Below, piece after piece: positions 1-3,000 of a stretch of DNA of 6,395 bases (position 1 is the stretch's first letter; every line of letters starts with the position of its first letter). Made by a program: the position numbers. Origin of the DNA: a virus (Duplodnaviria > Heunggongvirae > Uroviricota > Caudoviricetes); the IMG/VR virus record IMGVR_UViG_2778260991_000003; one strand, 5' to 3'.

Positions 1-3000
1 ATTTATGCGAAATCGCTACAGGCGATGGATTTCAGCGCCATTACTGATAAAGCCTCATATAACGCCATTGAGTGGCCAGCACCTCCACAGAACACCTGAA
101 AAAGAAGTTAATCAACAGACCGTCTTAAGGGCGGTTTTTTTATGGGAGAAATGTATGTCCGGACTACATGGTGTTGAAACCATTGAACTGACGACAGGCA
201 CGGTTGCCGTGCAGACCATCTCCACAGCAGTGATTGGCCTGGTGGGGACAGCACCGGACGCCTCTGGTGGCGTGTGCGCTTCCGGCACAGCCGGCTCCTG
301 GCTGCTGGGAACGGCGCTGGATTTCACGGCGAAACAGGAAGGTCGGGTCGGTAATAAGATTTCGGTTGTTGCCGTGGCTGCCACAGAACAAAACGCGCAG
401 ACAGTGGCATCGCTGAAAGGCACAACCCTGACGATAACGCTGGGGACGGACGAATACAGCCAGGTTAACGCCACGGCTGACCGTGTGACTGAAGTGGTGA
501 ATGCACTGGGTGATTCACCTGTGACGGCGGCGGTCAGTACCCTGAATGCAGGGAGCGCTGAAAATAATGTGGTGTCGCCATTCAGCCTGACGTTATCCGG
601 CGGGGAAGATGAGGCGTTCCCGGTTAATACACCAGTTGTGGTGGCAGGAGCCATTACTCAGGCAGGAAAACTGGGGGCCGCCGGAACACTGTATCCGGCC
701 CTGCGAGATATTTTTGATCAGACCGGTGCACTGGTGATTGTGGTACGTGCGGAAAGCAAACCGAAAGCGAAAGAGGCTGAACAACGCGCGGCGGTGATTA
801 AGGCCATGGAAGCGCTGACAGAGAGTAAAGGTGTGACGGGCTATCAGCCGCGCATTCTCATTGCCACGGGTTACAGTGAGGATGATGGTGTGGCAAAGGC
901 GCTGGAAACGTATGCCGCGAAGCTGCGGGCTGTGGCCTATATCGACTCTCCCTCAATGGCAACGCCGCAGGATGTGGTTCAGCGGCGCGCATCCTTTGGC
1001 GGGCGCGTGGAACTGCTGCGCCCGCGCGTGTCAGTAACGGATGACAGCGGGCAGACGGTATTTCGTCCGTATTCGGCCCGTGCTGCCGGGCTGCGTGCCC
1101 GTATTGATTACGAAAAAGGGTGGTGGTGGTCCAAATCAAACCAGGACGTGATGAATATCACCGGTCTGGAGCAGGTGGATACGTTTATTCTCGGGGAGCA
1201 GAACTGCACGGCAAACCTGCTGAACATGGAAAACATCTCCACCATTATTCGCCATGACGGCTTTAAACACTGGGGTAACCGCCTGTGTACATCCCACAGC
1301 CAGCTGCGTTTTGAGTCTGTGCGCCGTACGGCTGATGTGATTGAGGACAGCATTCAGGAGGCCATGCTGCCTTATGTCGATCGCCCGCTTGATCGGGATG
1401 TGGCGGAGGACATTCTTGGCAGTATTAATGCCTATATGCGTCAGCTTAAAAATCTGGGTGCGATCCACGGTGGCAGCGCCTGGCTGAATGATGAACTGAA
1501 CACGGCAGAAAACCTGGCAGCCGGGTGGTTGTATATCGACTATGACTTCGGACCAAAGTCGCCACTGGAGCGCCTGACGCTACGGACAATGATCAACAAT
1601 AAACTGGCACAGGAGGAACTGACAGTATGATCACAGGTGAAAAAAAACTGTTGCGCGCCTGGACGTTGTTTCTGCCTGGCGGGATCCGTCTTCATGGGGC
1701 GCATGAATACACGCCGCCCGCCATTAATATCTCAACAGTGGATATCAAAACCGGTGCAATGGATGCGCCGGTGGCAGTGGATGACGGCATGGAAGCGCTG
1801 ACCTGCTCATTTAAGATTTATGGTTACGATGTTTCCATGCTGACGCTGCTGGGATTACAGGCCGGGCTTTATTCACCGGAGATCGTTGTTCGCCAGGCTT
1901 ACCAGGTGGGGAATGCGACCAGCGGACAGGTGGAAACCCTGCAGGGGATGATCACCAGTATCACGCCGGATGCACGTCCTGCCACATCACAGGCTGACGC
2001 TTCGGTGACGGTGGAAATGTCACTGAGTTATTACCGTCAGGCTGTCGACGGTGTGGAAACCATCTGCATTATTCCGGAGGAATTTGTGCGCCGTATTAAC
2101 GGCGTGAATGTTCTGTCGGATCTGAAAAAAATTATCCGGGTTTAATCCCGGTATCCTGTCATTCAGGCGGCTCAGGCCGCCTTTTCTTTTTTAAGAGGAG
2201 ACGCAGATGTCAGAAAAAAACAGTGTGCCTGCCAGCAGTGTGGAAATTGTGTTATCCGTGCCGTATGTCACCGCGTCAGGACAGACGATCACGCACGTCA
2301 CCATGCGTGCGCCCACCGTTCGTGACAGGCTGCTGCATCGCCGGAGCAGCAAACCGGAAGCTGAAGCCGATCTGGATATGATTGCCGGTCTGTGCGGGAT
2401 GGATGCGGCGGACATGATGAACATGGAAGCGTGTGATTACCTGGCCCTGGAGCGTCAGTTTAATGTTTTTTTGCTGCCGCCGGTCCGGCGGAAGAAGAAA
2501 GCATCCTGACAGCGATACGGCGTGCCGGTGCATGGTTCGGATGGTCTCCCGGAGATGTGATGGCGCTGCCGTATACGGATTTTGTGGCAATGATGCTGGC
2601 GGAGTCGGAAGAGAGGAAGCGATGTTATGGCAACGGTGGGCGATAACCTTAAAGCGAATATCCGGATCGGAGGCACGATAGATCCGTCGTGGAAAAAATC
2701 GGTTGATGGGCTGAAGCACGGATTATCAGGGGCAACACAGGAAGTGGCTCGTCTGACACGCCAGCAGGACGTACTGAAACGAAAAATTCAGGCTGGCGTA
2801 CTGGCTGGACAGGATATTACTGAACTGCGAAAGCAGTATGAAAAGCTGGGTAAAAAAATTCATGATGCCACCGGAGAGCAGGACAAATTTAACCGTAAAC
2901 TGGCTCGTGCGGAACGCCTGGAACGCTGGAAAGGGCGGGCGGGGACGGTCCTTAAAACCGGTTTTGGGCTTTCGGTTGGTTCCGGGTTGACGTTGGCAGC

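What the first reader, a model, noticed from the sequence alone, without database searches (positions are those of the whole stretch)
263..610. Roughly 115-residue insertion in the sheath relative to P2 FI, likely an extra surface domain
The sheath is 491 aa, whereas P2 FI is about 396 aa and R-pyocin sheath about 386 aa by my recollection. Conserved sheath blocks align on both sides (..ISTAVIGLVGTAPDA before, ..EAFPVNTPVVVAG after). Between them, residues about 37-152 form an Ala/Thr/Val/Gly/Ser-rich segment that P2 lacks. Sheath proteins are known to take domain insertions on the outer surface; such a domain could alter tail surface properties or bind decoration factors.
Basis: partly seen in the sequence, partly recalled or inferred. 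Interest (0 to 1): 0.45.

Follow-up and report, generated by a model that had tools for sequence, protein, structure and literature searches.

The report
Extra outer domain in phage sheath
The tail sheath protein of this E. coli prophage carries a real, self-folding extra domain of about 115 residues that P2 and R-pyocin sheaths lack; extra sheath domains are a known theme, but this one sits at an unusual site and belongs to an unnamed domain family shared with flagellar proteins.

Summary
The sheath gene (window 155-1630, 491 aa) aligns with P2 FI (396 aa) and pyocin PA0622 (386 aa) on both sides of one block, residues 37-152 (nt 263-610), which they lack.

- **Folding:** modelled alone with a 52-sequence alignment, the block folds confidently (pLDDT 95, pTM 0.88) as an alpha/beta domain.
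- **Conservation:** all 118 full-length homologues examined, from many Enterobacterales, carry it. It evolves faster than the core (48% vs 75% pairwise identity) but under purifying selection (dN/dS 0.10-0.23 vs 0.04-0.05).
- **Wider family:** no Pfam, NCBIfam or PHROG model covers it. Its profile finds 615 representative proteins. Many hold tandem copies, in flagellar hook, FlgL and flagellin proteins, another sheath lineage and phage virion proteins.
- **Position:** it interrupts the Gp18_domIII_N region. Mu's Pfam "domain II" instead lies after the N-terminal region.

The surface-domain reading is supported, mostly by inference. The outward position was not shown, because no full-length model was obtained. 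Nothing found here points to a decoration factor. I rate it a new variant of a known kind, of moderate interest.

The parts
155..1630 (+). Tail sheath gene, 491 aa plus stop
   Evidence: Translation. Pfam Phage_sheath_1 at residues 215-375 (53.2 bits, cut-off 31.4) and Phage_sheath_1C at 381-479 (58.3 bits, cut-off 26.9). PHROG 23 'tail sheath', E 4e-108. PA0622 E 3.9e-51. RefSeq annotates the same CDS.
155..262 (+). Residues 1-36: N-terminal linker arm and the first strand of the body (AVIGLVGTAPDA)
   Evidence: Aligns to P2 FI residues 6-37 at 50% identity. It is 84% identical across the family. In PA0622, residues 2-24 form the inter-strand linker (PMC8195476).
263..610 (+). Inserted domain, residues 37-152
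341..355 (+). G-R-x-G-N motif (residues 63-67), the most conserved part of the insert
   Evidence: G63 100%, R64 88%, G66 97% and N67 100% conserved in the family. The same GxxGN motif appears in the hook, FlgL and phage copies of the domain.
380..403 (+). Variable loop (residues 76-83) between the third and fourth strands of the insert
   Evidence: This is the site of the length variation in the family. Some members carry extensions rich in P, E, S and K, of up to about 50 residues (P0038, P0054, P0033, P0036, P0083).
593..613 (+). L-S-G-G-E-D-E (residues 147-153): conserved end of the insert and its junction with the core
   Evidence: L147 99%, G149 97%, G150 100%, D152 95% and E153 98% conserved. 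The same 'LSGGxD' ending closes each copy of the domain in hook and FlgL proteins.
611..1627 (+). Conserved sheath core, residues 153-491 (rest of the protrusion lobe plus the handshake domain and C-terminal arm)
   Evidence: Collinear with P2 FI 33-384 and PA0622 34-381. In close relatives the stretch just after the insert scores just below the Pfam Gp18_domIII_N cut-off (24-26 bits against 27).
1627..2145 (+). Tail tube gene, whose start overlaps the sheath stop codon
   Evidence: Pfam Phage_tube, E 3.5e-23.
2207..6030 (+). Rest of the P2/R-pyocin-type tail module: chaperone (2207-2509, with a T7G slippery site at 2466-2473), tape measure (2627-4279), gpU (4276-4770), gpX (4745-4963), gpD (4954-6030)
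   Evidence: Pfam Phage_TAC_7, Phage_P2_GpU and Phage_tail_X above cut-off, and Phage_GPD below cut-off (22.0 bits against 30.1). Frames around the slippery site. RefSeq annotation, which starts gpU at window 4282.

Best explanation
Residues 37-152 form a self-contained alpha/beta domain of about 115 residues. It is plugged into the first beta-hairpin of the protrusion lobe (the T4 gp18 domain III equivalent) of a sheath that is otherwise of the P2/R-pyocin type.

**Shown**
- It is a single block.
- It folds on its own, and its ends carry conserved sequence.
- It resembles other tail sheath proteins in fold.
- It belongs to a large, unnamed family of modules that also occur in flagellar hook, FlgL and flagellin proteins and in phage virion proteins.
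- It is kept by purifying selection, but evolves several times faster than the core.

**Inferred**
- Each sheath subunit displays one copy on the outside of the tail, away from the tube and the handshake mesh.
- The domain therefore rides as a rigid passenger during contraction and forms an extra outer layer.
- Its most likely role is generic to such outer domains: stabilising or shielding the tail surface, or giving weak adhesion. It is unlikely to be part of the contraction mechanism.
For: - **Single-block insertion:**
- **Independent fold:** pLDDT 95, pTM 0.88.
- **Weak link to Pfam domain II:** PF17481 matches the insert nearly end to end but weakly (E 0.42). In the relatives P0139 and P0141, PF17481 and my insert profile match the same stretches.
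- **Conservation:** all 118 full-length homologues keep the insert.
- **Evolutionary rate:** pairwise identity is 48% in the insert and 75% in the core. dN/dS is 0.10-0.23 in the insert and 0.04-0.05 in the core.
- **Tolerant loop:** one loop accepts extensions of up to about 50 residues.
- **Mobile family:** 615 representative proteins at E <= 0.001, many with several copies. They include FlgE, FlgL, flagellin, a sheath of the phrog_205 lineage, and cement or virion proteins.
- **Literature:** other contractile systems add domains onto the protrusion domain (PMC8195476). Additional domains lie away from the tube (PMC9230969; PMC6088184).
Against: - There is no full-length model, so the packing and outward orientation of the insert were not observed. 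The single-sequence run failed (pLDDT 38).
- Homology to Pfam domain II is not established. The score is 11.5 bits against a cut-off of 31.4. hhalign against Mu L domain II gives only 9% probability.
- Foldseek against the PDB found nothing significant.
- The function is entirely inferred.
Confidence: 0.8

Rival explanations
1. The domain is a specific adhesion module. It would bind a host-surface or environmental glycan, as proposed for Ig-like domains on phage surfaces, and so help adsorption.
For: - It evolves fast and has a hypervariable loop.
- Relatives sit on the exposed, variable parts of flagellar proteins and on virion proteins.
- PMC9230969 suggests that additional sheath domains may serve adsorption.
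Against: - No match to any carbohydrate-binding or Ig-like family.
- The conserved residues are glycines and other small or hydrophobic residues typical of a scaffold, not an obvious binding site.
- dN/dS is well below 1.
Confidence: 0.15
2. The domain is a docking platform for another virion component: a decoration protein, folded-back tail fibres or the baseplate periphery.
For: - In phiCD508 the distal sheath domain contacts a baseplate triplex wing domain in the ring nearest the baseplate (PMC11948020).
- The prophage encodes two tail-fibre genes.
Against: I noticed no candidate tail-decoration gene in the annotated neighbourhood, and no co-varying partner was looked for.
Confidence: 0.1
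3. The domain tunes contraction, because it is inserted only about 12 residues after the N-terminal inter-strand linker. Other groups have altered the length of that linker to probe contraction in pyocin and type VI secretion sheaths.
For: - Its position next to the linker.
- Fraser et al. inserted extra residues into that linker, between Gly23 and Ser24 of PA0622, to make sheath mutants (PMC8195476).
Against: - The linker and the first strand are intact and highly conserved (84% identity).
- The insert leaves and re-enters at one loop.
- Its fast evolution argues against a role in the mechanism.
Confidence: 0.07
4. The segment is not a real domain. It would be an annotation or assembly artefact, a low-complexity linker, or a recent foreign insertion such as a mobile element.
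For: - The composition is biased (60% A+G+V+T+S).
- A 180-aa antisense ORF overlaps it.
Against: - The reading frame is uninterrupted and the sequence is identical in independent genomes.
- It is conserved in hundreds of protein clusters.
- pLDDT is 95 and dN/dS is 0.1-0.2.
- GC3 equals that of the core (0.60).
- No flanking repeats.
Confidence: 0.02

Closest known systems
P2 gpFI and R-type pyocin sheath PA0622 (one-domain, 'type 1' Peduovirinae-type sheaths)
   Same: - The N-terminal arm and the whole core are collinear (38% identity to FI over 353 aligned columns; E 3.9e-51 to PA0622).
- The gene order is the same: sheath, tube, chaperone with a -1 frameshift site, tape measure, U, X, D.
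   Different: - It carries about 115 extra residues between the first and second strands of the protrusion lobe.
- All Peduovirinae sheaths modelled by Evseev et al. have one domain and 321-410 aa (PMC9230969).
- The head genes of this prophage are lambda-like, not P2-like.
Sheaths with an additional outer domain: Mu gpL (Pfam PF17481 'Phage_sheath_domII'), DSY3957, phiCD508 gp55, T4 gp18
   Same: - One extra compact domain sits on a conserved core, and the total length (491 aa) is close to that of Mu L (495 aa).
- PF17481 matches weakly but nearly end to end.
   Different: - The PF17481 score is far below the cut-off.
- In Mu L the domain lies at residues 99-203, after the N-terminal region and before Phage_sheath_1. 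Here it lies at 37-152, inside the Gp18_domIII_N region.
- Profile-profile comparison with Mu L domain II is not significant.
Two-domain sheaths with a P2-like core, such as Escherichia phage Alux-21, Xanthomonas phage FoX2 and Pseudomonas phage Persinger (474-479 aa)
   Same: A P2-like core (43-44% identity to this sheath) carries one inserted module and reaches a similar total length.
   Different: Their insert is unrelated in sequence (two tandem 'GYTxAPxV' repeats). It lies at another site, after 'PGFTH' inside the Phage_sheath_1 region. They have nothing at position 37.
Outer, variable regions of flagellar axial proteins (flagellin, FlgE, FlgL)
   Same: The same sequence module occurs there, often as two or more tandem copies: LxFTAxxxGxxGNxIxV ... 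ITVxLATDxxGxxTxTAxxVxxAIN ... LSGGxD.

Membership tests
Contractile tail sheath, P2 FI / PA0622 type | Pfam Phage_sheath_1 and Phage_sheath_1C above their gathering scores | tested here: met
   53.2 bits (cut-off 31.4) and 58.3 bits (cut-off 26.9). PHROG 23 'tail sheath', E 4e-108.
Contractile tail sheath, P2 FI / PA0622 type | Collinear homology to solved or studied members, including the N-terminal linker arm | tested here: met
   PA0622 E 3.9e-51 over query 147-487. P2 FI E 9e-65, plus the N-terminal segment 5-36 = FI 6-37.
Contractile tail sheath, P2 FI / PA0622 type | Sits in a sheath-tube-chaperone-tape measure-U-X-D tail operon | tested here: met
   Pfam hits for tube, TAC_7, GpU and tail X above cut-off, and GPD below cut-off (22.0 bits against 30.1). 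RefSeq annotation.
Contractile tail sheath, P2 FI / PA0622 type | Polymerises around the tube and contracts | not testable with these tools
   Needs electron microscopy of induced particles.
One-domain ('type 1') Peduovirinae sheath (Evseev et al. 2022) | A single main domain and a length of 321-410 aa | tested here: not met
   491 aa, with an independently folding block of 116 residues. Definition taken from PMC9230969.
Two-domain ('type 2') sheath (Evseev et al. 2022) | A main domain plus one additional compact domain located away from the tube | tested here: inconclusive
   The additional compact domain is shown. Its position relative to the tube was not modelled, because the full-length prediction failed.
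Pfam PF17481 Phage_sheath_domII | Score at or above the gathering threshold (31.4 bits) | tested here: not met
   11.5 bits, E 0.42, covering profile positions 14-97 of 98.
Pfam PF17481 Phage_sheath_domII | Position between the Gp18_domIII_N region and Phage_sheath_1, as in Mu L | tested here: not met
   Mu L has it at residues 99-203, before Phage_sheath_1 at 212. Here the insert is at 37-152, and a sub-threshold Gp18_domIII_N match resumes after it in close relatives.
Pfam PF17481 Phage_sheath_domII | Fold shared with the additional domains of solved sheath proteins | tested here: met
Pfam PF17481 Phage_sheath_domII | Profile-profile similarity to a bona fide member (Mu L domain II family) | tested here: inconclusive
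   hhalign E 0.0035, probability 9%, 40 columns aligned.
Unnamed 'GxxGN ... LSGGxD' module family (hook, FlgL, flagellin, phage virion proteins) | Significant full-length HMM matches that share the motifs and the domain boundaries | tested here: met
   615 representative proteins at E <= 0.001. Individual copies score 30-48 bits over nearly the whole profile, and the motifs are visible in the alignments.
Ig-like phage surface domains | All-beta Ig fold or a match to a Pfam Ig-like family | tested here: not met
   No Pfam match. The model is alpha/beta, with a 10-residue helix.

The most novel reading that the evidence does not exclude
The insert is a member of a large, mobile and so far unnamed family of surface modules. 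None of the four libraries searched has a model for it. The family is shared by phage virion proteins (two unrelated sheath lineages, and head, cement or structural proteins) and by bacterial flagellar axial proteins (flagellin, FlgE, FlgL), where it forms tandem arrays.

If so, phage tails and flagella draw on a common pool of outer-surface domains. In this sheath lineage the module was taken up independently at a non-canonical site, the first hairpin of the protrusion lobe, rather than at the site used by Mu.
Probability: 0.45. Interest if true: 0.55.

Novelty: new variant of a known kind. Interest (0 to 1): 0.38.

Why it matters
Sheath proteins are built on a conserved core that accepts add-on domains, and this case adds three things.

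- **A second insertion site:** a core that tolerates modules at several sites is useful for engineering tailocins or phages that display a cargo on every sheath subunit, probably more than a hundred copies per tail.
- **A compact, well-behaved module:** it has clean boundaries (...PDA | ... LSGGEDE |) and a loop that accepts extensions of up to about 50 residues.
- **A link between phage and flagellar surface domains:** if confirmed, this would deserve a family description.

The function of the domain in infection is unknown. For annotation, the ~489-aa sheaths of Enterobacterales prophages could be described as 'P2-type sheath with an N-proximal outer domain'.

Tried and rejected
- **Full-length model:** AlphaFold2 on the single sequence was useless (pLDDT 38). 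This cost one of the two structure jobs, so no full-length model built from an alignment could be made.
- **Word-indexed protein searches:** searches with the insert alone, or with its alignment, returned only fragments.
- **PDB sequence search:** the insert profile matched nothing, even at E <= 10.
- **Foldseek against the PDB:** only noise, mostly PETases with TM about 0.2.
- **BFVD viral structures:** the best matches are uncharacterised myovirus proteins.
- **AlphaFold database library:** not available.
- **Direct comparison with Mu L:** BLASTP and hhalign were not significant.
- **Circular permutation:** in Mu L domain II the 'TAKxxGxxGN' element lies after the beta-alpha-beta unit, whereas here it lies before it, so I considered a circular permutation. 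Duplicating the Mu alignment did not raise the hhalign score, so I dropped the idea.
- **Recent foreign acquisition:** rejected. GC3 is equal in insert and core, and there are no flanking repeats.
- **Positive diversifying selection over the whole domain:** rejected (dN/dS 0.10-0.23).
- **Antisense ORF 112-654:** I take it to be a by-product of the Ala/Thr/Gly/Val codon bias. RefSeq does not annotate it.

Full report
**Where the window comes from**

The 6395-base window is 100% identical to a prophage in E. coli strains SA53-3 and P393-F10. A match is present in 148 of 5426 complete E. coli genomes. It holds a P2/R-pyocin-type tail operon:
- sheath (155-1630)
- tube (1627-2145)
- tail chaperone (2207-2509)
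- tape measure (2627-4279)
- gpU, gpX and gpD

The prophage lies next to a truncated ompW gene near the trp operon, and its head genes are lambda-like.

**Checking the observation**

The sheath is 491 aa. P2 FI is 396 aa and PA0622 is 386 aa.
- BLASTP against P2 FI gives two collinear segments: query 5-36 = FI 6-37, and query 146-483 = FI 33-384 (E 9e-65).
- phmmer against PA0622 aligns query 147-487 to chain residues 34-381.
- A multiple alignment with 24 relatives and P2 FI shows a single gap in P2, from ...TAPDA to ...EDEAFP.

The extra length is therefore one block, residues 37-152 (nt 263-610), give or take 3 residues. The block is 60% Ala+Gly+Val+Thr+Ser, against 37% in the core.

**Is it a real domain?**

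All 118 full-length homologues retrieved, from E. coli, Salmonella, Klebsiella, Enterobacter, Citrobacter, Serratia, Pantoea, Erwinia and others, carry the block. Several residues inside it are nearly invariant: G63, G66, N67, L96, F143, L147, G149, G150 and D152.

AlphaFold2 on the block alone, with a 52-sequence alignment, gives pLDDT 95 and pTM 0.88. The fold has seven strands of three or more residues and two helices.

Between E. coli alleles, dN/dS is 0.10-0.23 in the insert and 0.04-0.05 in the core. The insert is therefore under purifying selection, though a more relaxed one. GC3 is the same as in the core, and no repeats flank it. It is a genuine, long-resident protein domain.

**What kind of domain is it?**

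No Pfam, NCBIfam or PHROG model covers it. The only trace is a sub-threshold match to PF17481, the sheath 'domain II' model (E 0.42, 11.5 bits), which nevertheless spans nearly the whole profile.

The two protease-resistant fragments matter here. By my recollection, which I did not check, they hold only the outer domains, so a match to them cannot be a match to the core. Foldseek found nothing significant in the PDB. A profile-profile comparison with Mu L domain II was not significant either (probability 9%). I therefore call it 'sheath outer-domain-like' and do not file it under PF17481.

**A large mobile family**

An exhaustive HMM search with the insert alignment found 615 representative proteins at E <= 0.001. 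Many hold 2 to more than 12 copies, each scoring 20-48 bits over almost the whole profile.

The alignments show a shared signature with the same start and end: LxFTAxxxGxxGNxIxV ... ITVxLATDxxGxxTxTAxxVxxAIN ... LSGGxD.

The hosts of the domain include:
- flagellar hook protein FlgE, with two copies between its D1 and D2 domains
- FlgL
- giant flagellins
- a sheath of a different lineage (phrog_205, with a sub-threshold DUF3383 match), with two copies
- phage 'virion structural' proteins (phrog_8757)
- phage cement proteins

In two of these relatives, PF17481 and my profile match the same stretch. That gives a transitive, though weak, link to the Pfam sheath domain.

**Where it is inserted**

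In P2 FI, Pfam Gp18_domIII_N covers residues 26-86 and Phage_sheath_1 starts at 113. The insert falls at the position of P2 residue 37, inside Gp18_domIII_N. That is about 12 residues after the N-terminal inter-strand linker, which is residues 2-24 in PA0622 (PMC8195476).

In close relatives of this sheath, a sub-threshold Gp18_domIII_N match (24-26 bits against a cut-off of 27) resumes right after the insert. Mu L instead has PF17481 at residues 99-203, after the N-terminal region and just before Phage_sheath_1. From memory, and not tested here, T4 gp18 also has its outer domains inserted after about residue 87.

Cousins with a P2-like core (Alux-21, FoX2, Persinger) carry an unrelated repeat insert at a third site. 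The core therefore accepts modules at several loops, and this lineage uses an unusual one.

**How it most likely works**

Fraser et al. describe the pyocin subunit as a handshake domain plus a globular protrusion. They state that other contractile systems add domains onto the protrusion. Evseev et al. and Schwemmlein et al. place additional domains away from the tube and from the contacts between subunits.

The insert interrupts the region equivalent to gp18 domain III. It also evolves two to three times faster than the core and has a loop that tolerates long, charged, proline-rich extensions. From this I infer that it projects outward from every subunit and travels as a passenger during contraction.

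Its role is probably the generic one of such domains: surface stabilisation, shielding or weak adhesion. This last step is inference only.

**Novelty**

Additional sheath domains are well known, so the principle is ordinary. Three things are less ordinary:
- All Peduovirinae-type sheaths modelled so far have one domain (PMC9230969).
- The insertion site is not the canonical one.
- None of the four libraries searched has a model for the module's family, yet it is widespread and shared with flagellar proteins.

Among 50,697 phage records, only Hafnia phage yong2 and Citrobacter phage Chris1 have a detectable copy of the insert, although it is common in prophages.

**Verdict**

I rate this a new variant of a known kind, with moderate interest (0.38).

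Noticed in passing
L002 4954-14699 (E. coli SA53-3, upstream of the window): A separate integrated element lies between the prophage's lambda-like head genes and its baseplate and tail genes. It encodes an integrase, an HTH regulator, a BRO-N protein, an Icd-like protein, a RepA helicase, SSB, its own major capsid and decoration proteins, and a small terminase. It looks like a capsid-forming satellite (cf-PICI type) sitting inside the structural operon of a prophage.
   Followed up: no
window 2466-2473: A T7G slippery run lies near the end of the tail chaperone gene. 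The -1 frame stays open for about 55 further codons, which is the classic P2 E/E+E' programmed frameshift arrangement. RefSeq annotates only the short product.
   Followed up: partly
L004 183-1604, L005 75-1511, L006 75-1505: The P2-like sheaths of phages Alux-21, FoX2 and Persinger carry a different insert: two tandem repeats of about 45 residues with a 'GxGYTxAPxVxxxGGG' signature. It lies after 'PGFTH', inside the Phage_sheath_1 region. No Pfam model matches it.
   Followed up: partly
P0038, P0054, P0033, P0036, P0083, P0031, P0042 (aligned to window 380-403): Some family members have extensions of 20-50 residues, rich in Pro, Glu, Ser and Lys, in one loop of the insert. P0080 and P0093 have a 12-residue extension after the helix.
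   Followed up: partly
P0170, P0174, P0136, P0147, P0131, P0139: The insert's domain family occurs as tandem copies in FlgE, FlgL and giant flagellins, in a sheath of the phrog_205 lineage, and in phage virion structural proteins. None of the Pfam, NCBIfam or PHROG models covers the sheath insert itself.
   Followed up: partly
window 155-1627 compared with L051 and L053: Between E. coli alleles, synonymous divergence is about half as high in the N-terminal arm and insert (dS 0.07-0.19) as in the core (dS 0.38). This suggests a recombination breakpoint inside the sheath gene.
   Followed up: no
window 112-654, minus strand: A 180-aa antisense ORF overlaps the insert. RefSeq does not annotate it. 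I take it to be a by-product of the codon bias for Ala, Thr, Gly and Val.
   Followed up: partly
P0010 (E. coli, 462 aa): A sheath variant 90% identical to this one lacks 29 residues of the core (query 220-248) but keeps the insert. It may be a decaying prophage copy.
   Followed up: no
L009 4690-6174 (Mu gene L) and the viral loci used: In the domain II of the Mu L family, the 'LTAKxxGxxGNxIDVR' element lies after the beta-alpha-beta unit ('...AIN...LPVTA'). In this insert the equivalent element lies before it. The hint of a circular permutation was not supported by hhalign.
   Followed up: yes
window 6055-6395: A second tail-fibre gene ('prophage tail fiber N-terminal domain-containing protein') starts just after gpD, in addition to the fibre gene upstream of the sheath.
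   Followed up: no
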